Source of the DNA: an uncultured bacterium
Lineage (GTDB): Bacteria; Krumholzibacteriota; Krumholzibacteriia; WVZY01
Reading direction: 5' to 3'
NCBI GenBank assembly: GCA_964654695.1
Contig: CAZZKJ010000002.1
Coordinates: 1,363-65,362 of the forward strand
Length of the DNA stretch: 64,000 bases
Below, one piece after another: positions 11,068-59,678 of this stretch. The first letter of the stretch is position 1; every line of letters begins with the position of its first letter. The notes under the pieces are model-generated. The model was given only the letters and a program-made list of their open reading frames with translations, did not search any database and was not told the origin of the DNA. Position numbers and translations under genes: made by a program.

Positions 11068-11129
11068 ATTATGAGTTCCTCCTTGAACAATATTATCCCT
11101 GCCAAAACGGGAATTTAATGTATCAATGT

Positions 11130-15654: not shown

Positions 15655-17637
15655 TCATCTGGCCTTCGATCCCGACCTGCTTGATTCCACGAGCAGAGCA
15701 AACCTCTCGCCGGATTTGCGCAGGGCTTCCAGGTCGGGATCCTTGTAGGCCCACTCGAATGCGCTGTAACCGTTCTCAAAAGCCCGAGCCAATGCGCCAA
15801 AGGCGCTTTCGAGTTCGCCATGCAGGGAATAGGTGCATGCAAGATCGTAGAAAACCTGACCGTCCGGACCCGCCAGTTCTATGATTTTGAGAAAATATTT
15901 TTCGGCTTCGGCATAGCCGCCTCTCAGGTAGCATGTATTTGCGGCTCCCAGGTAGGCGTTGGTATAATAGGGATCAAGCTTAATGGCTTTATTATATTGG
16001 GTCAGGGCCGGACCGTATTCCTTCGATTTTTCGTAAAACACTCCCAGGTTGTAATAAGCCGGTGCAAAACTGCCGGATATCGACAAAGCTCGATCGTACA
16101 TTTTGGATGCATCTTCCCTGCGCCCCTGGATATCGAGTACATTAGCAAGCTGCACGGCTGCGTTGATCGACTCGGGATTTATTTTCAGCGCTTTTTCGAA
16201 TTTCGTTCCGGCCGCTTCGTAATCCCCCAGGGAAACAAGAGCCCTGCCGTGATTCAGCAGCGCCCGCCATTCATAAGGGTCCCCCGCTTCAATTATTTCG
16301 AACTCGGATATTGCCTGTTTGATTTGATGTCTTTCCAGGAGGGCGTTGGCATAATTGCCGTGAATCATCGGCGATTCCGTATTCCGGGCAGTTTCGGCGA
16401 ACAATGTGTAATCGTCCAACCAGTCGCGTGAACGGACATTGTCCGCGGCGGCATAGCCGGCGGCGATCATCGCCGCTGCCACCAGCGCGGGCCAACGCAA
16501 CCTGCGCCGCCCGACAAAGTACGCCCCGGCACCCCCGGCAATCAGGGCAAATGCCGCACCGGGAAAGTACAGGAATCTCTCGGCGAGAATCGGATCCGAG
16601 TATGGGGGAAAAACAACGACCGGCAGCAGCGTGCCCGCCAGCAGAAGAGCGGCAAATGCAAAAAGCGGTTCAAAGTCCGTATGTGAAATGTTCTTTCCCG
16701 GCACTTTCTTGAATGTTTCTCTCCATTTTATTACCGCGCAAATTGCGAACAAAAGAATTACCGCCCCGGCTGCGGTGTCGAAGGACGGCTCGACGGCTTC
16801 CACACCGTAGTGAGCCTTCAGCGGATACGGCAGTATGAGAAGTTTCAAATAGTATAAAAGAGATGCGAGGGAGACCGTGAATCTCTCCCCTATCGATCCA
16901 AAATCCCCCCCCAGGTCGATACCGGTTATCTTAATATGAATAGCGGTATACACTGAAAGCTCTATAAAGAACAGTCCCGCCGCCAACATGCCTTTTTTCA
17001 GCCTCCCGCCGGTGGATCTGAGGAAAATGAAAGCCAGCAGCACAAACGGAAGCACCGCCGCCGTTTCCTTTGATAAAAGAGCGCCTGCATAAAAAATTAC
17101 TGATGCAGCAAGCGCGAAAAAAGACCGCAGGCCTTTGCGCGAGAGGCCCTCAAATACGGCGGCCAGAGACGCAAGCGCGAACACCAGGCACAGCACATCG
17201 GTCCGTCCCGAAATCCAGGCCACGGATTCGACATGGACGGGATGAAGCGAGAAAACCAATGCCGACACAAGAGCGGCTGAAAACCGCCCGGTCAGCTGCA
17301 TGCAGACAACTGCAAGCAGGAGCGCGGCCAGCGCATGCAGGAGCAAATTGGTCGCGTGGAACCCCGCTGCATTAAGACCGTAGATTCGGTGATCGATGGC
17401 GAAACTGCTCCTTATCAGCGGTCTGTAAAATTCCGAAAAACGGGAAGGATCATCGAAAGTAACCCAGAAGTCCGAACCGAACACTCCGCCTATTATTTTA
17501 CCGGAAAGTACCTGGGTGTTTTTTTCCACCAGATCGTGATCGTCCCAGACGAAAGATCCGGACAGGCCCGGATAATACGCGCAAGCGACGGCAACGATGA
17601 TGATAGTACTGAGAACAAGCCAATAAAAGGGTTTCAT
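15655..17637 (-). CDS. TMTC-like protein O-mannosyltransferase: N-terminal multi-TM GT-C/DUF1736 domain fused to C-terminal TPR repeats
   Basis: 'YYPGLSGSFVWDDHDLV' is the conserved first-loop motif of TMTC/DUF1736 proteins. About 10 TM helices. The C-terminal ~270 aa contain about 7 TPR repeats ('YNLGVFYEKSKEYGPALTQYNKAIKLDP...'). Confidence 0.65.
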   Translation of the reverse strand: MKPFYWLVLSTIIIVAVACAYYPGLSGSFVWDDHDLVEKNTQVLSGKIIGGVFGSDFWVTFDDPSRFSEFYRPLIRSSFAIDHRIYGLNAAGFHATNLLLHALAALLLAVVCMQLTGRFSAALVSALVFSLHPVHVESVAWISGRTDVLCLVFALASLAAVFEGLSRKGLRSFFALAASVIFYAGALLSKETAAVLPFVLLAFIFLRSTGGRLKKGMLAAGLFFIELSVYTAIHIKITGIDLGGDFGSIGERFTVSLASLLYYLKLLILPYPLKAHYGVEAVEPSFDTAAGAVILLFAICAVIKWRETFKKVPGKNISHTDFEPLFAFAALLLAGTLLPVVVFPPYSDPILAERFLYFPGAAFALIAGGAGAYFVGRRRLRWPALVAAAMIAAGYAAADNVRSRDWLDDYTLFAETARNTESPMIHGNYANALLERHQIKQAISEFEIIEAGDPYEWRALLNHGRALVSLGDYEAAGTKFEKALKINPESINAAVQLANVLDIQGRREDASKMYDRALSISGSFAPAYYNLGVFYEKSKEYGPALTQYNKAIKLDPYYTNAYLGAANTCYLRGGYAEAEKYFLKIIELAGPDGQVFYDLACTYSLHGELESAFGALARAFENGYSAFEWAYKDPDLEALRKSGERFALLVESSRSGSKAR

Positions 17638-17743: not shown

Positions 17744-17783
17744 CCCCGACCGGCAACGGGATTCCGATGTGTACCGGTCGGGG
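17744..17783 (-). terminator. Candidate intrinsic terminator of the 4-haem cytochrome gene: 10-bp GC-rich inverted repeat (ccccgaccgg / ccggtcgggg) with a T/A-rich tail on the minus strand
   Basis: Perfect 10-bp inverted repeat at 17744-17753 and 17774-17783, 35-64 bp downstream of the 17818 stop. The minus-strand reading is followed by 'TTATTATTAT'. The loop is long (20 nt), which lowers confidence. Confidence 0.4.
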
Positions 17784-17817
17784 GTGCTTCGCCGCAGGCT
17801 CTCTCCTGAGCGACGAA

Positions 17818-18489
17818 TTATTTAATATGGCAAACCAGGCAAAGAGAGCTTGCCCCGACGCCCGTTCCCGCAGCGCCTTTCGTCTTAACGCGAAGCAAGT
17901 GGGTTCCCGATACCGATTCCAAATCATGCACATCATGGCAGGTTGAACACTGAACCTTGTTATTGTCCAGGACATCCTCGATTGTTCCCGAGGTGCCCAT
18001 GGTCGTTGTAACTGGGTTAAGACCCGCATCCGCCGTATTATAAGTAATAGAGATCGGATGCGTTCTGTTCAGATCTGCGTTGATCTTGTAGCCGGCATCA
18101 TAATCATCGATAAGCACCGTTCCGGCCGAATTGCCGTCGAAGTTATCGATGGCCACAGTTCCGTCATGGCAGCTGAGGCAGAGTTTGGAAACACCGCTGG
18201 GCTGGGTATCCTGCGTTCCATCCAGGGGAGGCATAATGGTAGAGTACATGGTGAATGTCTGGGTGGTAACGTTATGGTTCCAGAGCAATCCATTGTCCCC
18301 TAGCGTCCTTCCATGGTCATGAGGAACATGGCAAACGCGGCAAATCTCGACGCGTTTAGTATTCCAACCTTCAGCGCTAAAATCATGAGGGCTTCCAACA
18401 ATGCCGGATCCGCTGCCGCTGGCAAAAGCTGTCGCTCCGAAGAAGGAAACGAGAGCCAACGAAACAACTAGAAGCTTTAATGCTTTCAT
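17818..18489 (-). CDS. Tetrahaem c-type cytochrome (doubled-CXXCH family), secreted
   Basis: Four CxxCH motifs ('CRVCHVPH', 'CLSCHDG', 'CSTCHDVH', 'CLVCHIK'). Signal peptide 'MKALKLLVVSLALVSFFGATAFA'. Start placed at ATG 18489, because the 60-aa upstream extension in the ORF track contains the sigma-54 promoter. The 'SPHDFS...CxxCHxPH' motif is characteristic of the Geobacter-type paired CXXCH family. Confidence 0.75.
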   Translation of the reverse strand: MKALKLLVVSLALVSFFGATAFASGSGSGIVGSPHDFSAEGWNTKRVEICRVCHVPHDHGRTLGDNGLLWNHNVTTQTFTMYSTIMPPLDGTQDTQPSGVSKLCLSCHDGTVAIDNFDGNSAGTVLIDDYDAGYKINADLNRTHPISITYNTADAGLNPVTTTMGTSGTIEDVLDNNKVQCSTCHDVHDLESVSGTHLLRVKTKGAAGTGVGASSLCLVCHIK

Positions 18490-18614
18490 ATGGTCATGGT
18501 TGTCGTCGAAACAAAACAGATACCGTGAAGGTATCGGCAATGGTCCGCAGCAACGCTGTTTCGACTTCAACACTTCACCTCCTTCCCGCGGACTGATTTG
18601 TGTCCGCACTAAAT

Positions 18615-18630
18615 GGCAAGAGAGGTGCCA
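18615..18630 (-). promoter_or_regulatory. Sigma-54 (RpoN) promoter, minus strand: TGGCAC-ctctc-TTGCC (perfect -24 GG / -12 GC consensus) upstream of the tetrahaem cytochrome gene
   Basis: Plus strand reads GGCAAgagagGTGCCA at 18615-18630; its reverse complement is TGGCACctctcTTGCC. It lies 126 bp upstream of the ATG at 18489 and directly downstream of the sigma-54 activator gene. Confidence 0.65.
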
Positions 18631-18807
18631 CGTATTAAGCATATTTAAGTGTCTGCACAACCTGTTCATATTTTAAGAGTTTAGGGGGTATACGCCATTG
18701 ATAGGGAGAAAAGGGCAAAACGGAACATAGCGTTATATGGCGATATTTTGTGTGATATAACTAAGAGCAATTATTTCCGAAGTCAAACCGGAGGAAGAAA
18801 CAGGAGG

Positions 18808-20184
18808 TCAGTCTTCTTTGAGCAAATTGAATTTCTTCATTCTGTATCGCAAGGCATCGCGGCCGATACCAAGAACGCCGGCAGCCCGCGTTTGATTCCA
18901 CGATGTCCGGTCCAGGGCCTGGACGATGAGCTGCTTTTCAACATCCTCTATGGAAATGCCTTCGGGAGGAAGGCTGAAGGATCCTTTGCCGTTTCCGCGT
19001 TTAATCTTGGGCCCGGTATCAAGAGGAAAATCTTCCTTATCGATCACATCTTTTTCGCATAGAAGGACGGCCCTTTCCACCACGTTTCTCAATTCCCTCA
19101 CATTGCCCGGCCAGTGATAATCGCTTATGACCTTTTCGGTTTCAGCGGTGAAACTCTTTATTTTCTTTCCGCACGACCTGCTGGTTTTTTCCAAAAAATG
19201 CCTGGCTATAAGGATCTCATCGCCTTTGCGTTCCCGCAGCGGCGGGATAAAGACCGGTATCACGTTCAAACGGTAGTACAGATCTTCCCTGAACGATCCC
19301 TCTTCGACGAGATATTTGAGATCCTTGTTGGTAGCCGCCACTATCCTGACATCGACATCGACGTCCGCTATACCGCCGACCCTGCGGAATTTTTTTTCTT
19401 CGAGTATATGGAGCAGGTTAACCTGCGCGCTGGGCAGCAAATCCCCGATCTCGTTAAGAAAAACCGTTCCTCCATCGGCAAGTTCTATAAGCCCTTTCTT
19501 TGTGGTCTTGGCATCTGTAAAGGCGCCCTTTTCATGGCCGAACAGCTCGCTTTCGAACAGGTTATCTATTAGCGAAGGACTGTTTATCGCCATGAAAGGG
19601 TGGCTGCATCGAGGACTTTCGTAATGAATCACCTGCGCGATTAGATCTTTGCCCGATCCGCTCTCACCCTGAAGAAAAACCGTTGACAGGTTGTTTCTGG
19701 CAACTTTTGAGGCGAGCTTCTTGACTTCTTTCATCGCCTTCGACTCGCCGATTATGCTGTCTAATGAAAACGCTTTTTTCTGCCTGGCTACGAAACTCGA
19801 TTCTTTGAGCTTCAATCTCGAGGTTTCCAGCGCTTTTTCGATAACAATCTTGAATTCATCAATAATAAAAGGTTTATTCACATAATCGTATGCTCCCAGG
19901 CGCATCGCTTCCACCGCCGTGCCGACATCCGCATAAGCGGTCAGCATAACCACAGGCAAATCGGGATAGTATGCCTTGAGCTTGGCCAGTGTTTCCAAAC
20001 CCGACATCCCGGGAAGCTTGAGATCCAATACCACCAGGTCGGGCAGTTCTTTTTTAATGGAATCAATAGCTTCGCTGCCGCTGCTGGCTTCATCGGTACG
20101 GTATCCCAGTTTGGCCAATCCGCGGACCAGGCTCCAGCGAACGAGCTTTTCGTCATCTACTATAAGCACAAAGCTTTTTCTCAT
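18808..20184 (-). CDS. Sigma-54-dependent response regulator (NtrC/AtoC family: REC + AAA+ sigma-54 activator + Fis-type HTH)
   Basis: REC domain with phospho-acceptor in 'LVVLDLKLPGMSG'. Walker A 'GESGSGKDLIAQ', GAFTGA-like 'HEKGAFTDA', arginine finger region 'REDLYYRLNV'. C-terminal HTH 'RTSWNQTRAAGVLGIGRDALRYRMKKFN'. Confidence 0.85.
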   Translation of the reverse strand: MRKSFVLIVDDEKLVRWSLVRGLAKLGYRTDEASSGSEAIDSIKKELPDLVVLDLKLPGMSGLETLAKLKAYYPDLPVVMLTAYADVGTAVEAMRLGAYDYVNKPFIIDEFKIVIEKALETSRLKLKESSFVARQKKAFSLDSIIGESKAMKEVKKLASKVARNNLSTVFLQGESGSGKDLIAQVIHYESPRCSHPFMAINSPSLIDNLFESELFGHEKGAFTDAKTTKKGLIELADGGTVFLNEIGDLLPSAQVNLLHILEEKKFRRVGGIADVDVDVRIVAATNKDLKYLVEEGSFREDLYYRLNVIPVFIPPLRERKGDEILIARHFLEKTSRSCGKKIKSFTAETEKVISDYHWPGNVRELRNVVERAVLLCEKDVIDKEDFPLDTGPKIKRGNGKGSFSLPPEGISIEDVEKQLIVQALDRTSWNQTRAAGVLGIGRDALRYRMKKFNLLKED

Positions 20185-20639
20185 AATTGTTGAACAGCCC
20201 CCAAATGCTCTGAGACAGAGTTTTATCGATTCCTCTAGCGATCATAAAACCATGTGTACTCTCAGGAGGAAAAACAGCCTCTCATGCGGTTTTTATATCG
20301 GGATAAAAGTTTCCGTCAACGATAATATATCGGATCGAACCCTATGCGCCTTTAATTATACTATTTTATGTCCTTATTATCACTATTAAAATCGTATCCT
20401 GAAAGGTTCAAAATCTTGTGGAAATGTTCCCTCGGGAGGGAGCTCTGATTCTGTCATTTCACTCAGTTCTGCGTCCTATGGCTCATCTCCCGGACTGAAA
20501 AACCGTTTCTGCCTTGGAAAAAACAAGCGGGGACGGTTTCATAGAATAATACCATAAAATACATACATTCAATACCTTAAAATGCTCATTGAAGTTTCGC
20601 GGTTGCTCGCAATCAGGTAATACCGGGGTTTCGGAGTCA

Positions 20640-20655
20640 AGGTACACAAGTTGCA
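20640..20655 (+). promoter_or_regulatory. Sigma-54 promoter, plus strand: aGGTAC-acaag-TTGCA (-24 GG / -12 GC, 2 mismatches to TGGCAC-N5-TTGCA) upstream of the NHL/cytochrome/barrel operon
   Basis: GG at 20641-20642 and GC at 20653-20654 with correct 10-nt spacing, 181 bp upstream of the ATG at 20836. It sits in a 650-bp AT-rich divergent intergenic region next to the sigma-54 activator gene. Confidence 0.55.
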
Positions 20656-20835
20656 CATAAAAACGAAGCGCAACCAGACGGGATTCCAAAGCGCCGCTGA
20701 TATTTCGTTCTCAGCCCTCTTCTGGAAGGTTCAAAACCGATTTTGCCGGTTACGGCGAACCGCTGGGATATCCCGTCCGGCACGCATTATCTAACCGTGT
20801 GGATCGACCAGAAAGTATCATAAAAGGTGTGACCA

Positions 20836-21951
20836 ATGAATTACCAGAATAATCCCGGAGTACGTCGGCTCATTGTCATTTCAACGGCATTATCGGCACT
20901 GTTGGCCGCCGCAGCGCTCATGACCAGCTGCTCGACGGCTCGTATGAGCAAAGATTCGATAGAGGTATTCTACCCGCCCCCACCGGAAGAACCCAAAATA
21001 CAGTTCTTGCAATCATTCAATTCATCAGCCGATATCGAAGACAAGCAATCATGGTTCGCAAAAACCGTTGTCGGCTCCAAGCAGCTTCAAAAAGGCCTTG
21101 GCAAACCTTACGGCATCACAATCGACAGGGGCAAAATCTATATCTGCGACACTTTGATCGGATCGATCGTCGTGATTGATCTGGACAAAAAGACCTTCGA
21201 ACTTTTCCCCGATAAGGGCAGAGGCAAATTGATCAAACCGATACACATTACAATCGACAGCGATGGGTTCAAATATGTATCGGACATCGGCAGAGGACAG
21301 ATTGTGGTTTTTGACGATCAAAACAAATATATAAAAACGATCGGCACCAAGAATGAATTACTCCCAGCCGACGCGGCGGTCTGGGGAGATACTTTGTTTA
21401 TAGCGGACACAAAGGATAATGAAGCCGAAGCAAGGAATAAACGCACCGGCGAACTGCTGTTCAAGTTCGGCAGAGGCGGCAATGAAAAAGGTGAGTTTCT
21501 TAAACCAACGAATATATCTCTAGACTCCGATGGGAACCTATACATAACGGATACAATTAATTTCCGCGTGCAGAAATTCGACCGGAGGGGAAATCTGCTG
21601 ACCGTTTTTGGCAAGGCCGGCGACGGTATCGGAGCTTTCACGCGTCCAAAAGGAACCGCGCTCGATAAAATGGATAACCTGTATGTTGTCGACAGCGCCT
21701 TCGAAAATGTTCAAATTTTTGACCAAACCGGGGATGTGCTGATGTTTTTTGGTGGAGCCGGAGCGGATCCGGGATCGATGTATCTGCCTGCAGATATATA
21801 TATAGATTACGACAATATTGAATATTTCCAAAAGCATGCGGCCGATGATTTTGAAATCGAATATTTGATTTTCGTAACCAACCAGTACGGTTCAATGAAG
21901 ATCAACGTATATGGTTTCGGCCATTCCAAGAACGGGAGCGGAGGATCTTGA
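20836..21951 (+). CDS. NHL-repeat six-bladed beta-propeller lipoprotein
   Basis: Lipoprotein signal with lipobox 'LMTSC'. Repeated NHL units ('KPYGITIDRGKIYICDT', 'KPIHITIDSDGFKYVSD', 'KPTNISLDSDGNLYITDTINFRVQKFD', 'RPKGTALDKMDNLYVVDSAFENVQIFD'). Confidence 0.75.
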   Translation: MNYQNNPGVRRLIVISTALSALLAAAALMTSCSTARMSKDSIEVFYPPPPEEPKIQFLQSFNSSADIEDKQSWFAKTVVGSKQLQKGLGKPYGITIDRGKIYICDTLIGSIVVIDLDKKTFELFPDKGRGKLIKPIHITIDSDGFKYVSDIGRGQIVVFDDQNKYIKTIGTKNELLPADAAVWGDTLFIADTKDNEAEARNKRTGELLFKFGRGGNEKGEFLKPTNISLDSDGNLYITDTINFRVQKFDRRGNLLTVFGKAGDGIGAFTRPKGTALDKMDNLYVVDSAFENVQIFDQTGDVLMFFGGAGADPGSMYLPADIYIDYDNIEYFQKHAADDFEIEYLIFVTNQYGSMKINVYGFGHSKNGSGGS

Positions 21952-22760
21952 TTAGAAAAAAGGCATCGAACAGATTTTTTGCGGCTCTGTGGAAACTCAC
22001 ATCCGAAGTATCTGTATATCCGCCGGGATCTCTCGCGATCCGCCGGCGGCGGGAATACACGCCTGCGGCCCTCTGGATATTGTGCTGTCTTATCGGATGG
22101 GCTACGGCGAACTGCTCTTCACAAACCAGGTATAATGTGCTGAGCACAGTATTCGACGGGGTTCCGCCACCCATAAGTGCAGTCTCTGATTATGCGGACA
22201 GCTTGTCAGTCAGGGCATCCAGGGATTGGGAGCTGGAACAAATCACGACCTACGCCCATGGGCCGTTCGCTGCAAAAGAATGCGGGGCTTGTCACAACCT
22301 GCCTGAAACAAAAAGTTTTAGAAACGGCATGAATAAGAGTTATGCCGTTCCGTCTTATTCCAGCAGCGCGAATAAAATGGGGAGGCTTCTCCGGCCGGAA
22401 GAAGAACTTTGTTCATACTGCCATTATGAAAAATCCGCCGACAATCCCGATAATAATGACAAGTTTCTTCACGGACCCGTGGCGGCCGGAGAATGCATCG
22501 TCTGCCATCATCCACATCAGTCGCCCAGACCGTTCATGCTTCTAAAATCTCCGGATTGGGAGCTCTGCTCGTCCTGCCATGGAGACGAAAATGAAAAGAG
22601 TTTCAAGCACATGAACGCCGATGCCGGCAGCGGATCTGCCGGCACGGCGAATAATAAATGCATCGAATGCCACGATCCTCATTCGAGCAGCAGGCAGTAT
22701 ATGTTGAAGAAAAGCGCCGATATTACTAAATCCTCCGCGACCGGCGAAAGCAGCATTTGA
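21948..22760 (+). CDS. Pentahaem c-type cytochrome (c3/c7-like, doubled-CXXCH type)
   Basis: Five CxxCH motifs ('CGACHNL', 'CSYCHYE', 'CIVCHHPH', 'CSSCHGD', 'CIECHDPH'). TTG start at 21948 is preceded by GGAGG and overlaps the upstream stop (TTGA). N-terminal hydrophobic segment 'ILCCLIGWATANCSS'. Confidence 0.75.
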   Translation: MIRKKASNRFFAALWKLTSEVSVYPPGSLAIRRRREYTPAALWILCCLIGWATANCSSQTRYNVLSTVFDGVPPPISAVSDYADSLSVRASRDWELEQITTYAHGPFAAKECGACHNLPETKSFRNGMNKSYAVPSYSSSANKMGRLLRPEEELCSYCHYEKSADNPDNNDKFLHGPVAAGECIVCHHPHQSPRPFMLLKSPDWELCSSCHGDENEKSFKHMNADAGSGSAGTANNKCIECHDPHSSSRQYMLKKSADITKSSATGESSI

Positions 22761-24772
22761 GAATCAGCAGCTCGAGGCTTACAATGCCCCCTGCAAGAAA
22801 AGAAAAAACAAATAATAAAACCGGCTGCACCCGTTTGCACCGGACCGCAGCGCTTGCATTCATCGCTTTGGTTTTGACGGCCCTTTTCCCCCGGTATTCA
22901 CAGGCCCAGGAAGTGAGACTCTTCAAGATTACTGCATATGAAGGTTACCTGGGCTTCGGCTATGAGTATCAGCGGGAAATGTGGGATAAATCCCAGCGCT
23001 TTCAGAACCTGCTCGCAAAGAATCACAGGTTCACGGAAGAACCTTCTCTTGATGTTTGGAGTTATTTTTATCATCCAAACGTTGCAAAAATCAAAACTTC
23101 TTTGACATGGACGCAGCGCCAGGAATTTCTGTCCAATGAATCGGCTCCCAACTACAACACCGGCATTGCCATAAAGGATTTTAGCGCGGATGCGGAGCTT
23201 TTCAAACGCCTTCCGGTCAATTTCCAGCTTTTCGCATCGCGGATCACTACCACCATCGACAATACTTACTGGTCTAAACGCGATCTTATTACCAGGAGAC
23301 TGGGAGCAAGAATAAATCTAAGGTCCCTTCTTCTTCCCGCCTCGCTCCAATCAAGCACCACCGAACAGGAAGGATTTGGTTTCTATTATTACCGGGAGAA
23401 ACGCAAAGATCTTCGGCTTGACATTTCCAACAACAATAAGTTCATACGCACCACGTTAAGCGGCGAAACCGCCGATATCTGGAGATCCGAACAAAACGTT
23501 AACAGTAAAATCGACCAGGCGGAGATTCAAAACATTTTCAATCCAAACAATATGGGAAGGGCTCAACTCGTATCCAACGTCCATTATTACCGGCAGAGAA
23601 ACGGCTACAACACGAAAAATTTCAGCGTCTTGGAAAACCTCAACATGCACTTGACATCGCGCCTGTCAATGCAGCTGTCTTATTCCAATTCTTCAGGAAC
23701 TTCACAGAATTTGAGCAACAAGACCGAAGTATTTCAGGGTATACTGTCACACAGGTTATACGAAAGCCTTCTCAGCTCGCTGGAGTTCTTCAGGACGTCC
23801 TTCGGTTTCGACCGCGGGAAACAAACGGACAGGGGAGGGAGGGTAGGTATTTCCTATCATAAATTCGTGCCTTTCGGCAAAATAGAAGCAGGGTACACGG
23901 CGCGATATCAGGAAGAATGGCAGGACTTCGAAGAAGATCTCGCCGCAATAATAAAGGAATCGCACCAGTTTATTCCTGGGGTTCCGCTGTTTCTCGACAG
24001 GCAGTTGATTAAACCCGAAACCATTGAGATACGCGACGAAACCGGCATTATTCTATACGAAGAAGGCATCGACTATATCATCAGGGCTTTTAGCAGTTAC
24101 ACTGAGATTATCATTCTTCCCGCCGGAAATATTCCGCGCGACGCGTTTTTGCAGGTAAGTTACCAGTTCCAGGTGGACCCCGCGCTGTCGTTCAAAACCT
24201 TGTCCGCTCAGTGGAATACATCAATCAATGTTAAAAATAAACTCATCATCAGCTACAAGCAAAGCGCCGACGATCAGACTCTGCTCGGCGGAATCGACGC
24301 CGGGAACCTCCAGGATATCAATCAAAACACGCTCACGGTTCAGACAATTATTAAAGGCTCCACAACGACCATGGAGTACCAGAAATACGGGGCCGATATA
24401 AATCCATTCAATGCCAGGAGGATAAATGAATATTTCTTCCATAATTTTTCCAGCAAAACCCAGATGAACCTTCAGGCAGATTACACAGTCATTGATTTTA
24501 CCGGAACGCCTGTCACCGCTACTTTATGGGACGTTATTCTTGGTTTCAAAAGCAGGCTCTCGCGGTCTATGAAACTCAACTTTCGCTCTTATTACCGGGA
24601 GCACCGCGGCCAGGGCGATACCAGCGTGATCTATGGATTGGAGAACGAACTCAGATACAGGTTCCGGATGGTTGAACTCTTTGCTTCGGGCGCGTTCGAA
24701 TACGGCCGGATCGAAGGATTTGAAAAGAGAAATAGAATATTTTTAAAAACCCAATTGAGAAGATATTTTTGA
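22757..24772 (+). CDS. Large outer-membrane beta-barrel protein (porin-like, ~670 aa; candidate porin of a porin-cytochrome conduit)
   Basis: N-terminal signal-like 'AALAFIALVLTALFPRYSQAQE'. Amphipathic beta-strand periodicity runs throughout, rich in Y/F/N/S/T/Q. C-terminal residue is Phe ('LRRYF'), the classical OMP barrel sorting signature. No enzymatic motifs. Start overlaps the upstream stop by 4 bp. Confidence 0.55.
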   Translation: MRISSSRLTMPPARKEKTNNKTGCTRLHRTAALAFIALVLTALFPRYSQAQEVRLFKITAYEGYLGFGYEYQREMWDKSQRFQNLLAKNHRFTEEPSLDVWSYFYHPNVAKIKTSLTWTQRQEFLSNESAPNYNTGIAIKDFSADAELFKRLPVNFQLFASRITTTIDNTYWSKRDLITRRLGARINLRSLLLPASLQSSTTEQEGFGFYYYREKRKDLRLDISNNNKFIRTTLSGETADIWRSEQNVNSKIDQAEIQNIFNPNNMGRAQLVSNVHYYRQRNGYNTKNFSVLENLNMHLTSRLSMQLSYSNSSGTSQNLSNKTEVFQGILSHRLYESLLSSLEFFRTSFGFDRGKQTDRGGRVGISYHKFVPFGKIEAGYTARYQEEWQDFEEDLAAIIKESHQFIPGVPLFLDRQLIKPETIEIRDETGIILYEEGIDYIIRAFSSYTEIIILPAGNIPRDAFLQVSYQFQVDPALSFKTLSAQWNTSINVKNKLIISYKQSADDQTLLGGIDAGNLQDINQNTLTVQTIIKGSTTTMEYQKYGADINPFNARRINEYFFHNFSSKTQMNLQADYTVIDFTGTPVTATLWDVILGFKSRLSRSMKLNFRSYYREHRGQGDTSVIYGLENELRYRFRMVELFASGAFEYGRIEGFEKRNRIFLKTQLRRYF

Positions 24773-25809
24773 GGCTTATGAAATCATTTATGAACAACAA
24801 AACCGTAATAGCAGCAGTCCTGATCGCATGCACGGCCGCGTTCTCATGTTCAAGGAAAGCCGCCTCACCCAAGAAAACGCGGATCTCCTGGCCGGCCGAT
24901 CCCGAAAGGGCCCGCGTGCGTTTCGTGACAGGCTTTTTTGCGCAGGAGGGATTAGAGCACGAACCGGGTTTCTTCGGCAGCCTGCGAAGGTTCATCACGG
25001 GCGGCAAATCTCCTTCCCTGCAGCAGCCTTACGGTCTGGAAACCGCGGACGACGGCAGCCTCTATGTAGTGGATACCGGGCTCAGGAAAATTATTATCTT
25101 TTCAAAGGAGGGACGCAAACTCGGCGAACTTTCTGCAGACCACCGCCTCTTATCGCCGATAGATATAGCTATCACCGGCGGCAGGATATTCGTTACCGAT
25201 TCCGCAAGGAAAAAAGTCTTCATCATCGACAAAAAAGGCAAAATCATCGGATCTATCGGCGAAGGCATTTTCGAACGGCCGACAGGGATCGCTGCATCAG
25301 CGGATGGACGTTATTTGTATACCGTCGATACCGCCGGGCACTGCATTTTCAGAACCAGCCCGGACGGAAAAGCTCTGAAGCGAATCGGCAAAAGAGGCTC
25401 GGCCCCGGGGGAATTCAATTATCCGACAAACATAACCGTGTCCGCAGACGGCCGAATCATAGTAACCGATTCAATGAATTTCCGCATACAAATCATGGAT
25501 GCCGGGGGCGCCCCACTGGCATCAATAGGAACCGCCGGCGACGGGCCGGGGACCTTTTCAAAGCCGAGGGGCGTGGCGGTCGACAGTGAAGGGCATATTT
25601 ATGTAGTAGACGCGATGTTCGATAACGTTCAAGTGTTCTCGCTCGATGGGACGCTGCTCCTGGCTTTCGGCTCGTCGGGTTACGGCCCGGGCCGTTTTTA
25701 TCTTCCCAGCGGAATATTTATAGATTCCAACGACAGGATATTCATCGCAGACACTTTCAACCGGGCCGTCCAGGTATTCGATTACATGCCGGAAGGGAAT
25801 GCCGATTGA
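24769..25809 (+). CDS. NHL-repeat six-bladed beta-propeller lipoprotein (second copy)
   Basis: Lipobox 'AAFSC'. NHL repeats ('QPYGLETADDGSLYVVDTGLRKIIIFS', 'SPIDIAITGGRIFVTDSARKKVFIID', 'YPTNITVSADGRIIVTDSMNFRIQIMD', 'KPRGVAVDSEGHIYVVDAMFDNVQVFS', 'LPSGIFIDSNDRIFIADTFNRAVQVFD'). Start overlaps the upstream stop. Confidence 0.75.
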   Translation: MRLMKSFMNNKTVIAAVLIACTAAFSCSRKAASPKKTRISWPADPERARVRFVTGFFAQEGLEHEPGFFGSLRRFITGGKSPSLQQPYGLETADDGSLYVVDTGLRKIIIFSKEGRKLGELSADHRLLSPIDIAITGGRIFVTDSARKKVFIIDKKGKIIGSIGEGIFERPTGIAASADGRYLYTVDTAGHCIFRTSPDGKALKRIGKRGSAPGEFNYPTNITVSADGRIIVTDSMNFRIQIMDAGGAPLASIGTAGDGPGTFSKPRGVAVDSEGHIYVVDAMFDNVQVFSLDGTLLLAFGSSGYGPGRFYLPSGIFIDSNDRIFIADTFNRAVQVFDYMPEGNAD

Positions 25810-27602
25810 TGCCGCGCGGGAACCGCTGCATAAAGGGCGTACGTATCTTTTTTAGGCGTTCGAAAAATCGCCGCAGTACTCCCGGAAAAGTTACTGGGGC
25901 CTTATTTACCGGGGCTTTCCTGGCCGCCTTCGCGGCTTCTACCTGCGCAACTTTGGAAATCAGAGCGCAGTCCGGTGTAATCGTATCGACCAAGCATAAT
26001 TTATCAATAAGCGGACCTGGATCGGTAAAAGCCGTGGACGAGACCAGGATTTGTATCTTCTGTCACACCCCCCACAGGGCAAGCAGCAGCGGCCCGCTGT
26101 GGAACAAGATGGATTCGCAGGCCGGCTACCTGCCCTATCAAAGCACGAGCATGCACGTTCTTCCCGGCCAGCCCGCCGGCAGCTCGAAACTCTGTTTGAG
26201 CTGCCATGACGGCACAATCGCCCTGGGACTCCTGGTTAGCGAACAGGCCCAACTGGGTATGACCTTCCAGTTCCCTACCGGCAGGAGCCTGCTGGGCACG
26301 GATCTAAGAGACGATCATCCGGTCAGTTTTTTATACGATGCCGGACTTGCCGCCGCGAATCCGGAACTGATAGACCCCGTGGGAAATCCCGACGTGCATC
26401 TTGATATGAACCAGCAGATGCAGTGCAATTCCTGTCACGATGCCCATAACAATATTCACGGACATTTCCTGCGAGAATCCAATACTCGGTCCGCGCTGTG
26501 CAGGCGGTGTCATGTTAAGAATGGATGGAACACCTGCAGCCACGCGGTTTCAACGAAATCCTGGAACGGCGCCGCTCCGGATCCATGGCCCTATACCGGC
26601 GAGCAGACCGTAGCCGACAACGCATGTGCCAACTGCCATTCCCCGCATCTTGCCGGCGAACCGGAGAGGCTTCTCTATAATGCGATCGAAGAACAGAACT
26701 GTTTCAAGTGCCATAACGGGCACGCTGCATCTAAGAACGTCGAAGCGGATTTTGCCAAGATATCCTACCATCCCGTAGACATGTATCAATCGGTCCACCA
26801 GCCCGGCGAAGATCCCGCGGCCATGAATAAGCATGTCGAATGCCTCGACTGCCATAACCCCCATGTCGCGAACGCGCTCGGCAACGAACAACCCCCGGCA
26901 AACCGCAGCCAGACCAAAGGTGTATCCGGGGTTACGAATTCAAATAATTTTACGGCCGAAGCGGTTTACCAGTATGAAATATGCTTCAAATGCCACGCCG
27001 GACAGCACTCCGCTTCCGCGAAAGTGCCTCGGGTCATCGCCCAGACCGATACCAGGTTCGAATTCGATCCCGGCAATCCTTCATACCACCCGGTCGAAGC
27101 CGCCGGCAGAAACCAGGATTGCCCCAGTCTCAAGTCGCCTTACACGACATCGAGCATCATCTATTGTACGGACTGCCATTCGAGCGATACCGGAACCGGC
27201 GCCGGAGGCCAGGGCGCAAGCGGCCCGCACGGTTCCGCATGGGAGCCGATCCTGGAAAGACGTTTCGAACTTTCCAACGGCCTCAGGGAAAACGCGGATA
27301 TATACGCCTTGTGTTACAAGTGCCATGATCGTCAGAATATTTTGGACAACCGGAGCTTCAAGGAACACAAGAAGCATATAGACGGAGAAAAAGCATCGTG
27401 CGCTACCTGCCATGATCCCCATGGTATAAGCTCGACCCAGGGAAATACCTCCAATAACACGCACCTGATAAACTTCAACACACTCGAAGTCACACCGAGC
27501 AAATCCGGAAAGCTGGAATTCATCGACGACGGTTATCGCCGCGGCAGGTGTTACCTGACATGCCACAGGAAAAACCACGATCCCAAAGACTATAAACCGT
27601 AG
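25806..27602 (+). CDS. Large multihaem c-type cytochrome, 11 canonical CxxCH plus one CX3CH motif
   Basis: CxxCH at CIFCH, CLSCH, CNSCH, CRRCH, CANCH, CFKCH, CLDCH, CFKCH, CTDCH, CYKCH and CATCH, plus C-terminal 'CYLTCH'. N-terminal signal-like 'ALFTGAFLAAFAASTCA'. The first ~200 aa are paralogous to the tetrahaem cytochrome at 17818-18489 (shared 'SKLCLSCHDGT'). Confidence 0.8.
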   Translation: MMPRGNRCIKGVRIFFRRSKNRRSTPGKVTGALFTGAFLAAFAASTCATLEIRAQSGVIVSTKHNLSISGPGSVKAVDETRICIFCHTPHRASSSGPLWNKMDSQAGYLPYQSTSMHVLPGQPAGSSKLCLSCHDGTIALGLLVSEQAQLGMTFQFPTGRSLLGTDLRDDHPVSFLYDAGLAAANPELIDPVGNPDVHLDMNQQMQCNSCHDAHNNIHGHFLRESNTRSALCRRCHVKNGWNTCSHAVSTKSWNGAAPDPWPYTGEQTVADNACANCHSPHLAGEPERLLYNAIEEQNCFKCHNGHAASKNVEADFAKISYHPVDMYQSVHQPGEDPAAMNKHVECLDCHNPHVANALGNEQPPANRSQTKGVSGVTNSNNFTAEAVYQYEICFKCHAGQHSASAKVPRVIAQTDTRFEFDPGNPSYHPVEAAGRNQDCPSLKSPYTTSSIIYCTDCHSSDTGTGAGGQGASGPHGSAWEPILERRFELSNGLRENADIYALCYKCHDRQNILDNRSFKEHKKHIDGEKASCATCHDPHGISSTQGNTSNNTHLINFNTLEVTPSKSGKLEFIDDGYRRGRCYLTCHRKNHDPKDYKP

Positions 27603-27661
27603 CTCCGGCCGCTGACGGCGACTCCATCGCGGCATCGAAACATGGGTAAAACCATGGGTTT

Positions 27662-28357
27662 CTACTTGGAAGATGATCCGGAACGATCGTAGATACGGCG
27701 CTTGTGGCATGAAGGGGAACAGCTTCCCCCGCTTTTGTTCTGGTCCCAACTGATGCTCATCTTCCACTTTCCAAAGGGGGAACGGTCGCGTAATAGAGCG
27801 GGCTTCGGGCCGGTGTGGGGAAAATGGCAGATCTTGCACGAACGCCCCTTATCGGGGCGGCCGACGTGGACCGAGTGCAGGTTTTTATCGCCGTTGCGAA
27901 AGGAAGTTGCTTCCGTTGTAACCTTATTCGCTACAAGAGACACTTCGTGGCATGAAAAGCATAGTGCAAACGCTTCCTCGGACCACGGAGCATAAAGACC
28001 TTCAGGAAAATCCATAGTGAGCATCTTCTTGCTGCCGCTGCCGTGAGGATCATGGCACATCGTGCATCCCCCCGCTTCGATCGCACCGTGCACAACGGTT
28101 CCGGCGGCGGTTTCCTCGTGGCAGAGGAGACAAAGCGCATTGTCTTCTTCCATCAGATTGAATGCGTGTTTTTTCTCGTCTGTGAGTTCGTGGCAGTTAT
28201 CGCATCCTTCTTCGAGAATCGGGTGCTTGTTTTCCATCTCCCTGAAGTTCTCATGACAGCCGGGGGCAATGCATTCCGTTTCCTGGGAGAAAACTGGTGC
28301 CGAGAAAAGCATTGGGGTCAAAACGGCGCAAATATTAATAAAACGCACACGGTTCAT
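27662..28357 (-). CDS. Multihaem c-type cytochrome (5 canonical CxxCH plus CX3CH and CX4CH variants), secreted
   Basis: Signal peptide 'MNRVRFINICAVLTPMLFSAPVFSQE'; start chosen at ATG 28357. Motifs are CDNCH, CLLCH, CTMCHDPH, CFSCH and CKICHFPH, plus 'CIAPGCH' and 'CSPSCH'. It converges on the 12-haem gene with a 59-bp gap. Confidence 0.7.
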   Translation of the reverse strand: MNRVRFINICAVLTPMLFSAPVFSQETECIAPGCHENFREMENKHPILEEGCDNCHELTDEKKHAFNLMEEDNALCLLCHEETAAGTVVHGAIEAGGCTMCHDPHGSGSKKMLTMDFPEGLYAPWSEEAFALCFSCHEVSLVANKVTTEATSFRNGDKNLHSVHVGRPDKGRSCKICHFPHTGPKPALLRDRSPFGKWKMSISWDQNKSGGSCSPSCHKRRIYDRSGSSSK

Positions 28358-28523
28358 ATAGCTATCTCCAGGGATAAAGTCGTAACTCCCGTTCGGCTGA
28401 TTATCGGATTCCCGTTTTAAGCCGGTCGATAATACCACGTCTTTCGGCAAAATCCTATCTAATTCATGCTCGACAACGATTCTTTAACCGGTTAAATTAA
28501 ATTGCTGAGAAAGGGAGTTCCTT

Positions 28524-35052: not shown

Positions 35053-35097
35053 TTTGTTCCGCCTTTTTTATAATATCTGCGGCCGTACCCGCAGGGT

Positions 35098-36210: not shown

Positions 36211-36227
36211 CTTTTTGCTCCTCGTGA

Positions 36228-59659: not shown

Positions 59660-59678
59660 TACTCCGGATTGCTCCTAT

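What the first reader, a model, noticed from the sequence alone, without database searches (positions are those of the whole stretch)
17744..28450. Sigma-54-controlled gene cluster: four multihaem cytochromes, two NHL beta-propeller lipoproteins and a ~670-aa outer-membrane beta-barrel (candidate non-canonical porin-cytochrome electron conduit)
Within 10.7 kb there are four secreted c-type cytochromes (4, 5, 11-12 and 5-7 haem motifs), two paralogous NHL six-bladed propeller lipoproteins and one large OMP-type barrel (C-terminal Phe, no enzymatic motifs). These are arranged around an NtrC-family activator gene. The plus-strand genes run NHL, cyt5, barrel, NHL, cyt12, each overlapping the previous stop by 4 bp, so the five gene products are likely made stoichiometrically as one complex. 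Known porin-cytochrome conduits (MtrCAB, PioAB, Geobacter Omb/Oma/Omc) pair a periplasmic decahaem or octahaem cytochrome with a barrel and an outer-surface cytochrome. To my knowledge NHL propellers as integral partners are not described, and the cytochromes here are of the Geobacter-like doubled-CXXCH type rather than MtrA-like. This may be an undescribed extracellular-electron-transfer module, or alternatively a periplasmic redox/sensor complex.
Basis: partly seen in the sequence, partly recalled or inferred. Interest (0 to 1): 0.85.

Follow-up and report, generated by a model that had tools for sequence, protein, structure and literature searches.

The report
OmcE-type cytochrome nanowire gene cluster
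The cluster is real and matches a recently described gene set for OmcE-type extracellular cytochrome "nanowires" (filament subunit, MtrA-like cytochrome, large outer-membrane barrel, two propeller lipoproteins, a 12-haem cytochrome), so it is a new member of a known, still uncharacterised kind.

Summary
Window 17.8-28.4 kb encodes four secreted multihaem cytochromes (4, 5, 12 and 5-7 haem motifs), two NHL six-bladed propellers, a ~670-aa all-beta outer-membrane barrel and an NtrC-type sigma-54 activator.

The claim that this is undescribed does not hold:
- The 4-haem protein belongs to the OmcE nanowire-subunit family. Its family profile matches PDB 7TFS at E 4e-46 and 9YUQ at E 4e-42.
- The 5-haem lipoprotein upstream of the barrel is an MtrA-type pentahaem module (E 4e-30).
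- The six-gene set equals the minimal omcE cluster described for Desulfuromonadia in a 2025 preprint: two multihaem cytochromes, two propeller lipoproteins, OmcE and a large barrel.
- NHL partners are also published for the Uet and Occ clusters and for Desulfovibrio ferrophilus.

New here:
- The module is co-conserved in many phyla. At least 590 species genomes hold the 12-haem cytochrome, and 67 of the best 80 loci also hold the barrel.
- The barrel family has 2,640 representatives at 50% identity and no Pfam model.
- Residues 53-238 of the 12-haem cytochrome form a complete OmcE-like domain, so it could be the filament's cell-proximal base.
- Sigma-54 promoters recur upstream of the omcE-like gene.

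Function is inferred, not shown.

The parts
17818..18489 (-). cyt4: OmcE-family tetrahaem cytochrome, the putative nanowire subunit. Sec signal MKALKLLVVSLALVSFFGATAFA, not a lipoprotein.
   Evidence: It has 4 CXXCH. phmmer matches 9yuq_N (D. soudanensis OmcE) at E 4.7e-12 over the full length. The profile of 40 orthologues matches 7tfs_A (G. sulfurreducens OmcE) at E 4e-46 and 9yuq_N at E 4e-42. The 4 motifs and His35, His57, His144 and His188 are invariant in 45 orthologues. A lipobox-like Cys occurs in 1 of 45.
18616..18630 (-). Sigma-54 (-24/-12) promoter TGGCACCTCTCTTGC, about 127 nt upstream of cyt4.
   Evidence: It is the only perfect match in the window; 0.09 are expected by chance. 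The relative L001 has AGGCACCGCATTTGC at the same relative position. Similar sites lie 113-180 nt upstream of cyt4 orthologues in other phyla, at 0.65 per kb against 0.18 background.
18808..20184 (-). NtrC-family sigma-54-dependent response regulator (receiver, AAA+ with GAFTDA loop, HTH_8).
   Evidence: Pfam Sigma54_activat E 7e-63, Response_reg E 1e-29, HTH_8 E 6e-17. It falls below every NCBIfam equivalog cut-off. It is conserved in the same place in L001. A similar gene lies within 10 kb of the module in 15 of 87 loci.
20640..20654 (+). Candidate sigma-54 promoter AGGTACACAAGTTGC, about 185 nt upstream of NHL1.
   Evidence: It has 2 mismatches with GG and GC intact. The 15-mer is exactly conserved in L001, inside a conserved block of about 27 nt in an otherwise diverged intergenic region.
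20836..21951 (+). NHL1: six-bladed NHL beta-propeller, probable lipoprotein (…AALMTSC|STA).
   Evidence: Pfam NHL E 3e-16. A lipobox-like Cys is present in 43 of 57 orthologues. It sits upstream of cyt5 and the barrel in most loci.
21948..22760 (+). cyt5: MtrA-type pentahaem cytochrome, probable lipoprotein (…ATANC|SSQT). TTG start with a GGAGG Shine-Dalgarno sequence.
   Evidence: It has 5 CXXCH. Its only PDB sequence hit is MtrA 6r2q_A at E 1.9e-8. The family profile matches MtrA at E 4.4e-30, aligning to both halves of MtrA, and MtrF at E 3.7e-15. Cys56 is at least 90% conserved. A lipobox is present in 35 of 59 orthologues.
22757..24772 (+). Outer-membrane beta-barrel of about 28-30 strands. 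The probable start is ATG 22784. Signal peptide cleavage …YSQA|QEV; C-terminal …RRYF.
23939..24181 (+). Conserved non-barrel insert within the barrel (residues ~395-475), containing the family's best-conserved motif (EG-IDY, Tyr469).
   Evidence: DSSP shows short strands and a helix here, with pLDDT about 70. Asp439, Tyr440, Tyr469, Glu401 and Leu413 are invariant or near-invariant. Information content is above average here.
24769..25809 (+). NHL2: six-bladed NHL beta-propeller, probable lipoprotein (…VLIAC|TAAFSC|S). The probable start is ATG 24778.
   Evidence: Pfam NHL E 3e-29. It matches the PDB NHL domains of Thin, TRIM71 and Brat, E down to 4e-68. It lies directly upstream of cyt12 in 67 of 80 loci.
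25806..27602 (+). cyt12: dodecahaem cytochrome with a Sec signal, not a lipoprotein in most homologues. The probable start is ATG 25809.
   Evidence: All 12 haem motifs and 16 further His are invariant in 66 homologues. 5,207 proteins match at E<1e-30. At least 590 species genomes hold a relative. The C-terminal 8-haem part has no PDB match.
25962..26519 (+). OmcE-like tetrahaem domain at the N-terminus of cyt12 (residues 53-238).
   Evidence: phmmer aligns it to the whole mature OmcE: 7tfs_A E 5e-26, 9yuq_N E 1e-23. The profile gives E 6e-43. Foldseek's only significant hit is 7TFS, at 35% identity. It is 32% identical to the window's cyt4, E 3e-23.
27662..28357 (-). cyt7: accessory 5-7-haem cytochrome with a Sec signal (…MLFSAPVFS|QE), convergent with the operon.
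   Evidence: It has 5 CXXCH plus 2 CX3-4CH. Paired_CXXCH_1 E 4e-21. It has a weak MtrA hit at E 1e-3. It is conserved in L001, and similar ~260-aa 7-haem genes flank the module in L010, L044, L056, L061 and L076.
15655..17637 (-). Membrane protein with weak, sub-threshold similarity to GT39-type (PMT_2) glycosyltransferases plus TPR repeats, immediately downstream of cyt4 on the same strand. Possibly linked; not conserved in L001.
   Evidence: PMT_2 E 2e-4, scoring 21.9 bits against a 26.1-bit cut-off, plus many TPR hits. The preprint reports GT2/4/39 and TPR genes following many omcE clusters. L001 lacks it.

Best explanation
This is an OmcE-type extracellular cytochrome-filament ('nanowire') gene cluster joined to an outer-membrane electron conduit.

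Shown by homology and synteny:
- cyt4 is an OmcE-family tetrahaem subunit.
- cyt5 is an MtrA-type pentahaem lipoprotein encoded directly upstream of a ~28-30-strand outer-membrane barrel.
- Two NHL propeller lipoproteins and a dodecahaem cytochrome complete the conserved six-gene set.

Inferred mechanism:
- cyt5 sits in or at the barrel, as MtrA sits in MtrB, and carries electrons across the outer membrane.
- The dodecahaem is held by NHL2 at the barrel and relays electrons.
- Through its own N-terminal OmcE-like domain, the dodecahaem docks or nucleates a polymer of cyt4 on the cell surface.
- NHL1 and NHL2 act as scaffolds or assembly chaperones.
- cyt7 may be a periplasmic feeder.

Expression is driven from sigma-54 promoters by the adjacent NtrC-type response regulator. 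Its sensor kinase is not in the window. The direction of electron flow (reducing minerals or humics, or taking up electrons) cannot be told from sequence.
For: Identity of the parts:
- The cyt4 family profile matches both solved OmcE nanowires (7tfs_A E 4e-46, 9yuq_N E 4e-42). The four haem motifs and four distal His are invariant. PDB identities are confirmed.
- The cyt5 family matches MtrA of the Mtr complex at E 4.4e-30.

Co-conservation:
- The order cyt4-NHL-cyt5-barrel-NHL-cyt12 is kept even where the barrel is only ~20% identical.
- It recurs across many phyla: 67 of 80 species loci have the barrel, and 31 of 80 have all six genes under strict adjacency.

The dodecahaem:
- cyt12 residues 53-238 form a full OmcE-like domain.

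Localisation:
- Lipoboxes are conserved in NHL1, NHL2 and cyt5 but not in cyt4 or cyt12.

Regulation:
- Sigma-54 promoters are conserved with L001 and recur upstream of cyt4 orthologues.
Against: - There is no experimental datum for this organism or for any non-Desulfuromonadia member. Polymerisation of cyt4 cannot be read from sequence: a monomer and a polymer need the same eight His.
- Roles of the barrel, the propellers and the two larger cytochromes are untested even in Geobacter. The preprint only calls the barrel 'putatively functioning as a secretion or anchor'.
- cyt5 is a lipoprotein, unlike MtrA, so its side of the membrane is uncertain.
- In D. ferrophilus, deleting related cytochrome genes did not impair Fe(III) oxide reduction.
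- The AlphaFold2 model of cyt12 has low confidence in the OmcE-like region.
- I could not fetch the Geobacter or Desulfuromonas cluster proteins to test orthology of the barrel, the propellers and cyt12 directly.
Confidence: 0.7

Rival explanations
1. It is a porin-cytochrome conduit without a filament. The barrel, MtrA-like cyt5 and surface dodecahaem form an Mtr- or Uet-like trans-outer-membrane wire. cyt4 is a monomeric tetrahaem shuttle or surface cytochrome rather than a polymer. This is essentially the first reader's model.
For: cyt5 is homologous to MtrA and sits directly upstream of the barrel. The barrel is conduit-sized. The Tenderiales Uet cluster has similar parts (tetrahaem, 28-strand barrel, two NHL proteins, an 11-haem doubled-CXXCH cytochrome) and is interpreted this way. 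The preprint itself warns that tetrahaems similar to OmcE are widespread.
Against: The cyt4 family matches the two experimentally solved OmcE filaments over their full length, with all haem ligands conserved. The preprint uses exactly this gene neighbourhood (barrel plus propeller lipoprotein) as its criterion for nanowire-competent OmcE homologues.
Confidence: 0.2
2. The barrel and the propellers are mainly a secretion and assembly machine (usher-like) for the cytochromes, and the barrel does not itself conduct electrons. Electrons reach the filament by another route.
For: The preprint's suggestion is 'secretion or anchor', with a porin-like mounting pathway proposed for OmcS. cyt4 and cyt12 have plain Sec signals yet must cross the outer membrane if they are extracellular. 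The barrel carries a conserved non-barrel insert domain.
Confidence: 0.25
3. It is a periplasmic redox, detoxification or sensing complex, or the barrel is an unrelated substrate transporter that happens to be adjacent.
Against: There is no plug, TonB-box or transporter family hit in the barrel or in 60 relatives. The cytochromes have no inner-membrane anchor. The barrel is co-conserved with the cytochromes across many phyla. No catalytic domain is present.
Confidence: 0.03

Closest known systems
omcE nanowire gene cluster of Desulfuromonadia (G. sulfurreducens OmcE, PDB 7TFS; Desulfuromonas soudanensis WTL OmcE, PDB 9YUQ; bioRxiv 10.1101/2025.10.22.684050)
   Same: It has the same six-part inventory: an OmcE-family tetrahaem, two further multihaem cytochromes, two beta-propeller lipoproteins and a large outer-membrane barrel. 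cyt4 is homologous to both solved OmcE subunits and conserves all haem ligands. A membrane protein with TPR repeats and weak, sub-threshold PMT_2 (GT39-type) similarity lies next to cyt4, recalling the glycosylation genes that follow many omcE clusters.
   Different: The lineage and genomic context differ: the purHDE...ffh synteny block is absent. cyt4 is divergently transcribed, with a sigma-54 activator inserted between it and the operon. Filament formation is unproven here. Orthology of the barrel, the propellers and cyt12 with the Geobacter genes could not be tested directly. As far as I could read, the preprint does not mention the OmcE-like domain in the large cytochrome.
Uet (undecahaem electron transfer) cluster of Ca. 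Tenderia electrophaga, Tenderiales and some Gallionella
   Same: It has a tetrahaem (UetA), a ~28-strand barrel (UetC), two NHL propellers (UetH/I) and an 11-12-haem 'doubled CXXCH / cytochrome c3 family' protein (UetJ). The window's cyt12 has 11 CXXCH plus 1 CX3CH.
   Different: Uet also contains a peptidyl-prolyl isomerase, three c7-type trihaems and a cupredoxin, and lacks the pentahaem upstream of the barrel. None of those extras is in the window cluster. Sequence-level homology was not testable because no Uet sequences were available.
Desulfovibrio ferrophilus IS5 outer-membrane cytochrome clusters DFE_0448-0451 and DFE_0461-0465 (used as FeGenie markers)
   Same: Multihaem cytochromes are interleaved with six-bladed NHL propellers. 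They include a pentahaem NrfB-like lipoprotein cytochrome and an NHL lipoprotein directly upstream of a Sec-secreted multihaem cytochrome.
   Different: No porin or barrel is apparent in D. ferrophilus, whereas here the barrel is central. Deleting those cytochromes gave no Fe(III) oxide phenotype.
MtrCAB / MtoAB / PioAB porin-cytochrome conduits
   Same: A periplasm-side MtrA-type cytochrome gene lies directly upstream of a large outer-membrane barrel gene. cyt5 is homologous to MtrA. The barrel superposes on MtrB over 422 residues.
   Different: The barrel has no detectable sequence relationship to MtrB or PioB. cyt5 is a pentahaem lipoprotein, not a soluble decahaem. There is no MtrC/OmcA-type decahaem. 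The set also has NHL propellers and an OmcE-type subunit.

Membership tests
OmcE-type nanowire gene cluster | A tetrahaem OmcE-family subunit with 4 CXXCH and 4 conserved distal His | tested here: met
   The family profile gives E 4e-46 to 7tfs_A and E 4e-42 to 9yuq_N. His35, His57, His144 and His188 are invariant in 45 orthologues.
OmcE-type nanowire gene cluster | A large outer-membrane beta-barrel gene in the cluster | tested here: met
OmcE-type nanowire gene cluster | Two beta-propeller lipoproteins and two further multihaem cytochromes | tested here: met
   The inventory matches the definition quoted.
OmcE-type nanowire gene cluster | The subunit polymerises into an extracellular filament with inter-subunit His-haem ligation | not testable with these tools
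   This needs cryo-EM or biochemistry. Sequence cannot distinguish a monomer from a polymer.
OmcE-type nanowire gene cluster | Barrel, propellers and larger cytochromes orthologous to those of the Geobacter or Desulfuromonas clusters | not tested
   No Desulfuromonadia locus was among the 80 returned.
MtrCAB/PioAB porin-cytochrome complex | An MtrB/PioB-family barrel | tested here: not met
   There is no Pfam hit for the barrel or for 60 relatives. The profile finds no MtrB in PDB at E<=10. Only generic fold similarity is seen.
MtrCAB/PioAB porin-cytochrome complex | An MtrA/DmsE-family decahaem periplasmic cytochrome | tested here: inconclusive
   cyt5 is homologous to MtrA (E 4.4e-30). However, it is a single pentahaem module with a lipobox, and it scores below the TIGR03508 cut-off (42 against 192 bits).
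Uet cluster (Tenderiales) | Peptidyl-prolyl isomerase, three c7 trihaems and a cupredoxin alongside barrel, NHL proteins and undecahaem | tested here: not met
   None of these domains is found in the cluster ORFs. The shared parts (tetrahaem, barrel, 2 NHL, 11-12-haem) are present.
TonB-dependent transporter | An N-terminal plug domain and TonB box; the TonB_dep_Rec barrel family | tested here: not met
   There are no such Pfam or NCBIfam hits. Strands begin right after the signal peptide.
NtrC-family sigma-54 activator | A receiver domain, an AAA+ sigma-54 interaction domain with a GAFTGA loop, and a Fis-type HTH | tested here: met
   All three domains are well above their cut-offs. The sequence shows GAFTDA. 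It meets no specific NCBIfam equivalog.

The most novel reading that the evidence does not exclude
The conserved dodecahaem cytochrome may be the missing cell-proximal base of OmcE-type nanowires.
- Its N-terminal OmcE-like domain (residues 53-238, all haem ligands conserved) would join the filament through the same subunit interface and start polymerisation of cyt4.
- Its eight further haems, held by the NHL2 lipoprotein, would wire the filament to the MtrA-like cyt5 inside the barrel.

If so, one conserved six-gene machine would explain how OmcE-type cytochrome filaments are anchored and charged. It is present in at least ten phylum-level groups, including Bacteroidota, Ignavibacteria, Verrucomicrobiota and Planctomycetota.
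Probability: 0.3. Interest if true: 0.75.

Novelty: new member of a known kind. Interest (0 to 1): 0.5.

Why it matters
How cytochrome nanowires are exported, anchored and electrically connected to the cell is an open question. The authors of the OmcE structures say so explicitly.

This window shows three things:
- The omcE-type six-gene set is a compact, strongly co-conserved module far beyond Desulfuromonadia. [quoted passage not shown] - There is a concrete, testable lead. The large cytochrome carries an OmcE-like domain and could be the filament's base, and the barrel-adjacent cytochrome is MtrA-like.

It also cautions that markers such as FeGenie's 'DFE_0461-0465' probably pick up parts of this module.

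Tried and rejected
- The word-indexed homologue search made the barrel look rare: 6-7 hits. The exhaustive profile search overturned this with 2,640 representatives.
I used the cyt12 alignment instead.
- The afdb50 fold library was unavailable.
- The idea that the barrel is a TonB-dependent or other transporter was rejected: no plug, no family hit, only generic barrel similarity.
- An MtrB/PioB sequence relationship was rejected.
- Sigma-70 promoter and terminator scans showed no enrichment over shuffles.
- No histidine kinase was found among the window ORFs I scanned.
- The taxon of the window was not determined. There are no tRNA or marker genes, and cluster look-ups returned no organism names. 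An identical cyt12 is on JGI sample 3300002231, contig KVRMV2_100043095.
- I could not read the OmcE 2022 paper, which is not held.
- I did not test whether the 'novel porin-MHC' of bog Verrucomicrobia is this same module. The OetABI conduit of syntrophic sulfate reducers appears to be a different system.
- The AlphaFold2 model of cyt12 is poor in the OmcE-like region, so the domain assignment rests on sequence.

Full report

Yes. ORF listing and translation give these genes.

| Coordinates | Strand | Content |
|---|---|---|
| 17818-18669 | - | 4 CXXCH; likely start ATG 18489, giving the signal peptide MKALKLL…ATAFA |
| 18808-20184 | - | Response regulator |
| 20836-21951 | + | NHL propeller (NHL1) |
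| 21948-22760 | + | 5 CXXCH (cyt5) |
| 22757-24772 | + | 671 aa, no domain hit (barrel) |
| 24769-25809 | + | NHL propeller (NHL2) |
| 25806-27602 | + | 11 CXXCH + 1 CX3CH (cyt12) |
| 27662-28450 | - | 5 CXXCH + 2 CX3-4CH; likely start 28357 (cyt7) |

- Pfam and NCBIfam confirm NHL repeats and Paired_CXXCH_1 domains.
- The regulator has the full NtrC-type architecture: Response_reg, Sigma54_activat at E 7e-63, and HTH_8.
- The '4-bp overlap at every junction' holds only if TTG starts are used. NHL1/cyt5 has no alternative (TTG preceded by GGAGG). The barrel, NHL2 and cyt12 each have a nearby ATG with a better Shine-Dalgarno sequence, giving a 1-nt overlap to a 23-nt gap.
- A public gene call of the identical cyt12 is 597 aa, which corresponds to the ATG start.
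- Either way the five plus-strand genes are packed like an operon.

**2. The 671-aa protein is a large outer-membrane barrel of an unannotated but very large family**

- It has a Sec signal (…YSQA|QEV) and ends in …RRYF.
- AlphaFold2 with six sequences gives pLDDT 77 and pTM 0.62. The chain is all-beta, with about 17-18 long strands before and 11-12 after a ~80-residue insert at residues ~395-475. That makes roughly 28-30 strands. I had no coordinates, so the count comes from the DSSP string.
- The barrel and 60 relatives hit no Pfam family. The family profile finds nothing credible in PDB sequences even at E<=10. No plug domain is present.
- The word-indexed search suggested the family is rare, with 6-7 hits. 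The exhaustive profile search found 2,640 representatives at 50% identity with E<1e-3 and 1,187 with E<1e-30, nearly all ~650 aa and matched end to end.
- Named members are 'hypothetical protein' in Desulfocapsaceae and Hydrogenophilales MAGs.
- The insert holds the best-conserved positions of the family: Glu401, Leu413, Asp439-Tyr440 and Tyr469.

**3. The genes are co-conserved as a six-gene module**

- Contigs encoding barrel relatives of only ~20% identity keep the order NHL-cytochrome-barrel-NHL-~570-aa cytochrome.
- One relative, L001, has a barrel 61% identical. It shares the whole neighbourhood, including the regulator.
- The 12-haem cytochrome is much better conserved: 46-50% identity where the barrel is ~20%.
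- The best 80 loci come from:
  - Nitrospirota, Verrucomicrobiota, Planctomycetota and Bacteroidota;
  - Ignavibacteria, Calditrichota, Desulfobacterota and Myxococcota;
  - Acidobacteriota, Gamma- and Betaproteobacteria, and others.
- I scanned those loci with my own HMMs. 67 of 80 contain the barrel. Most of the rest are contigs cut off next to cyt12. 31 of 80 have all six parts under strict adjacency rules.
- The usual order is tetrahaem - NHL - pentahaem - barrel - NHL - dodecahaem.
- Ignavibacteria, Bacteroidota and Calditrichota have a rotated order: NHL - dodecahaem - tetrahaem - NHL - pentahaem - barrel.

**4. What the cytochromes are**

*cyt4 (tetrahaem)*
- The single sequence matches PDB 9yuq_N over its full length at E 4.7e-12.
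- A profile of 40 orthologues matches 7tfs_A at E 4e-46 and 9yuq_N at E 4e-42.
- 7TFS is the G. sulfurreducens OmcE nanowire. 9YUQ is the Desulfuromonas soudanensis WTL OmcE nanowire bundle.
- In 45 orthologues the four CXXCH motifs and four further histidines (His35, His57, His144, His188) are invariant. This matches the 'four CxxCH and four other histidines' reported for OmcE homologues.
- cyt4 orthologues almost never have a lipobox: 1 of 45.

*cyt5 (pentahaem)*
- Its only PDB sequence hit is MtrA, chain A of 6R2Q, at E 1.9e-8.
- The family profile matches MtrA at E 4.4e-30, aligning to both halves of MtrA, and then MtrF at E 3.7e-15.
- A Cys at the end of the signal peptide is at least 90% conserved. 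35 of 59 orthologues show a lipobox. cyt5 is therefore an MtrA-type pentahaem module that is lipidated.
- In some Verrucomicrobiota and Planctomycetota, a 9-19-haem cytochrome takes this position.

*cyt12 (dodecahaem)*
- All 12 haem motifs and 16 other histidines are invariant in 66 homologues.
- More than 5,200 database proteins match at E<1e-30. They are annotated at most as 'cytochrome c3 family' or 'predicted CXXCH cytochrome'.
- Residues 53-238 align with the entire mature OmcE: E 5e-26 and 35% identity to 7TFS, E 1e-23 to 9YUQ. The profile gives E 6e-43.
- This region is 32% identical to the window's own cyt4.
- Foldseek on an AlphaFold2 model finds 7TFS as the only significant match. 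The model has pLDDT 67.7 and is weak in exactly this coil-rich region.
- The remaining eight-haem part has no solved relative.
- cyt12 is usually not a lipoprotein: 12 of 85 have a lipobox-like Cys.

*NHL1 and NHL2*
- Both are canonical six-bladed NHL propellers. Most orthologues carry lipoboxes: 43 of 57 and 38 of 76 by a crude test.

**5. Comparison with what is published**

The decisive text is bioRxiv 10.1101/2025.10.22.684050. In Desulfuromonadia:
- larger versions add GT2/4/39 glycosyltransferases, TPR proteins and regulators;
- the barrel is described as 'putatively functioning as a secretion or anchor';
- homologues with this neighbourhood were reported in five phyla.

The window's inventory is the same. 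Directly downstream of cyt4 it also has a membrane protein with TPR repeats and weak, sub-threshold PMT_2 (GT39-type) similarity (E 2e-4, 21.9 against 26.1 bits).

NHL propellers next to multihaem cytochromes are also published for:
- D. ferrophilus IS5, DFE_0448-0451 and DFE_0461-0465. No porin is apparent there, and the deletions gave no Fe(III) oxide phenotype.
- The Tenderiales and Gallionella Uet cluster: tetrahaem UetA, 28-strand barrel UetC, NHL proteins UetH/I and 11-haem UetJ. It also has a PPIase, three trihaems and a cupredoxin, which are absent here.
- The Occ cluster of Ca. Dechloromonas occultata.
- Dethiobacter and Geoalkalibacter.

The statement that NHL partners are undescribed is therefore wrong, and so is the idea that the module as a whole is undescribed.

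I did not find two points in the text I could read. One is that the large cytochrome carries an OmcE-like domain. The authors in fact write that no OmcE-like tip or initiator candidate is encoded in the operons. The other is how far the full module extends beyond the five phyla they list.

**6. Regulation**

- The only perfect TGGCAC-N5-TTGC in 64 kb (0.09 expected) lies at 18616-18630(-). It is about 127 nt upstream of cyt4, in the 320-nt gap next to the activator gene.
- L001 has a one-mismatch site at the same relative place.
- Upstream of NHL1, AGGTACACAAGTTGC (20640-20654) is exactly conserved in L001, within a conserved block of about 27 nt in an otherwise diverged spacer.
- Across the 80 species loci, such sites are about 3.6-fold enriched in the 300 nt upstream of cyt4 orthologues. 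They include perfect or one-mismatch sites at -113 to -180 in Nitrospirota, Planctomycetota and Myxococcota loci. No enrichment is seen upstream of internal genes.
- A sigma-54 activator gene lies within 10 kb of the module in 15 of 87 loci.
- Sigma-54 control is therefore well supported for this window and recurs elsewhere. The sensor kinase is not in the window.

**7. Most likely mechanism**

*Shown:* the family identity of the parts, their signals, their co-conservation and the promoters.

*Inferred:*
- The MtrA-type cyt5 and the barrel form the trans-outer-membrane step.
- The dodecahaem, paired with NHL2, relays electrons.
- Through its OmcE-like domain, the dodecahaem docks or nucleates the cyt4 polymer.
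- The propellers scaffold or chaperone the assembly.
- cyt7 is an accessory periplasmic carrier.

*Unknown:*
- whether cyt4 polymerises in this lineage;
- which face of the membrane cyt5 and the propellers occupy;
- how cyt4 and cyt12 cross the outer membrane;
- the direction of electron flow;
- the inner-membrane partner.

The main rivals are a conduit without a filament, and a barrel that is mainly a secretion usher. The second does not exclude the main model.

**8. Verdict**

- The finding is a correct observation of a real, conserved system. It is a new member, in an unplaced lineage, of a recently recognised kind and not a new kind.
- Its value lies in three things: the breadth of the module, the large unmodelled barrel family, and the OmcE-like domain of the dodecahaem as a testable answer to how such filaments are anchored.
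- Interest 0.5. The anchor hypothesis has probability about 0.3, and interest about 0.75 if true.

Noticed in passing
window 25962-26519 (+): The N-terminal 186 residues of the dodecahaem cytochrome are a complete OmcE-like tetrahaem domain. They are closer to G. sulfurreducens OmcE (E 5e-26) than the window's own OmcE-like gene is. I did not find this mentioned in the omcE-cluster preprint.
   Followed up: yes
window 22757-24772 (+), residues His106 and His332: Two histidines in the barrel are at least 90% conserved across 60 distant relatives (motifs GW-YHP and L-H-LYENLTT). Conserved His in a cytochrome-associated barrel might contact haems or partners. This is unexplained.
   Followed up: no
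window 18519-18535 (-): A hairpin (GATACCTTCACGGTATC) followed by a T-run lies in the cyt4 leader, between the sigma-54 promoter and the start codon. It is not conserved in L001. It may be a chance match or a local attenuator.
   Followed up: partly
window 18560-18600 (-) and L001 3480-3520: A conserved GGAGGTGAAG block lies about 60-100 nt upstream of the cyt4 ATG in both the window and L001. It may be an upstream start, a leader peptide or part of a leader RNA. The long ORF call (start 18669) runs through it.
   Followed up: no
window 3222-5312 (-) and 15655-17637 (-): Two paralogous ~660-700-aa membrane proteins combine a PMT_2 (GT39-type) region with C-terminal TPR repeats. The PMT_2 match is clear for the first and sub-threshold for the second. 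The second sits directly downstream of the OmcE-like gene. The window also holds three GT2 genes (41035-41742, 43128-44588, 59556-60425) and an ArnT-like gene (60690-62195).
   Followed up: partly
window 44711-45694 (-): A radical SAM protein scores above the NCBIfam cut-off for arsenosugar biosynthesis ArsS (410 against 300 bits). It lies next to glycosyltransferase genes.
   Followed up: no
window 31945-37574 (-): An RND efflux set: AcrB-type pump, HlyD-type adaptor and TolC-type channel. The pump is also adjacent to the cluster in the relative L001.
   Followed up: no
window 8977-12458 (-): A pair of M16 (insulinase-type) peptidases. The larger one is fused to a C-terminal DUF3108 domain.
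   Followed up: no
L002 1-7000; L016, L033, L053, L061 downstream of cyt12: Several Desulfobulbia-like and gammaproteobacterial loci carry a second set next to the module: two 8-haem cytochromes, a 3-haem protein, a third NHL propeller and a 16-18-haem cytochrome that also hits the cyt12 profile. L002 adds a cytochrome b. This may be an extended or duplicated version.
   Followed up: no
L009, L022, L023, L034, L064, L086 (Verrucomicrobiota); L015; L057: In these loci the cytochrome directly upstream of the barrel has 9-19 haems instead of 5. This may correspond to the 'novel porin-multihaem cytochrome' reported for bog Verrucomicrobia, but I did not test that.
   Followed up: no
L025, L029, L032, L037, L040, L046, L054, L058, L059: Ignavibacteria, Bacteroidota and Calditrichota share a rotated gene order (NHL-dodecahaem-tetrahaem-NHL-pentahaem-barrel). 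The window has the unrotated order.
   Followed up: partly
L088 (JGI sample 3300002231, contig KVRMV2_100043095): A protein identical to the window's cyt12 occurs in this metagenome and on a 127-kb NCBI contig. From memory only, the sample prefix suggests a hydrothermal microbial mat. I did not verify this.
   Followed up: no
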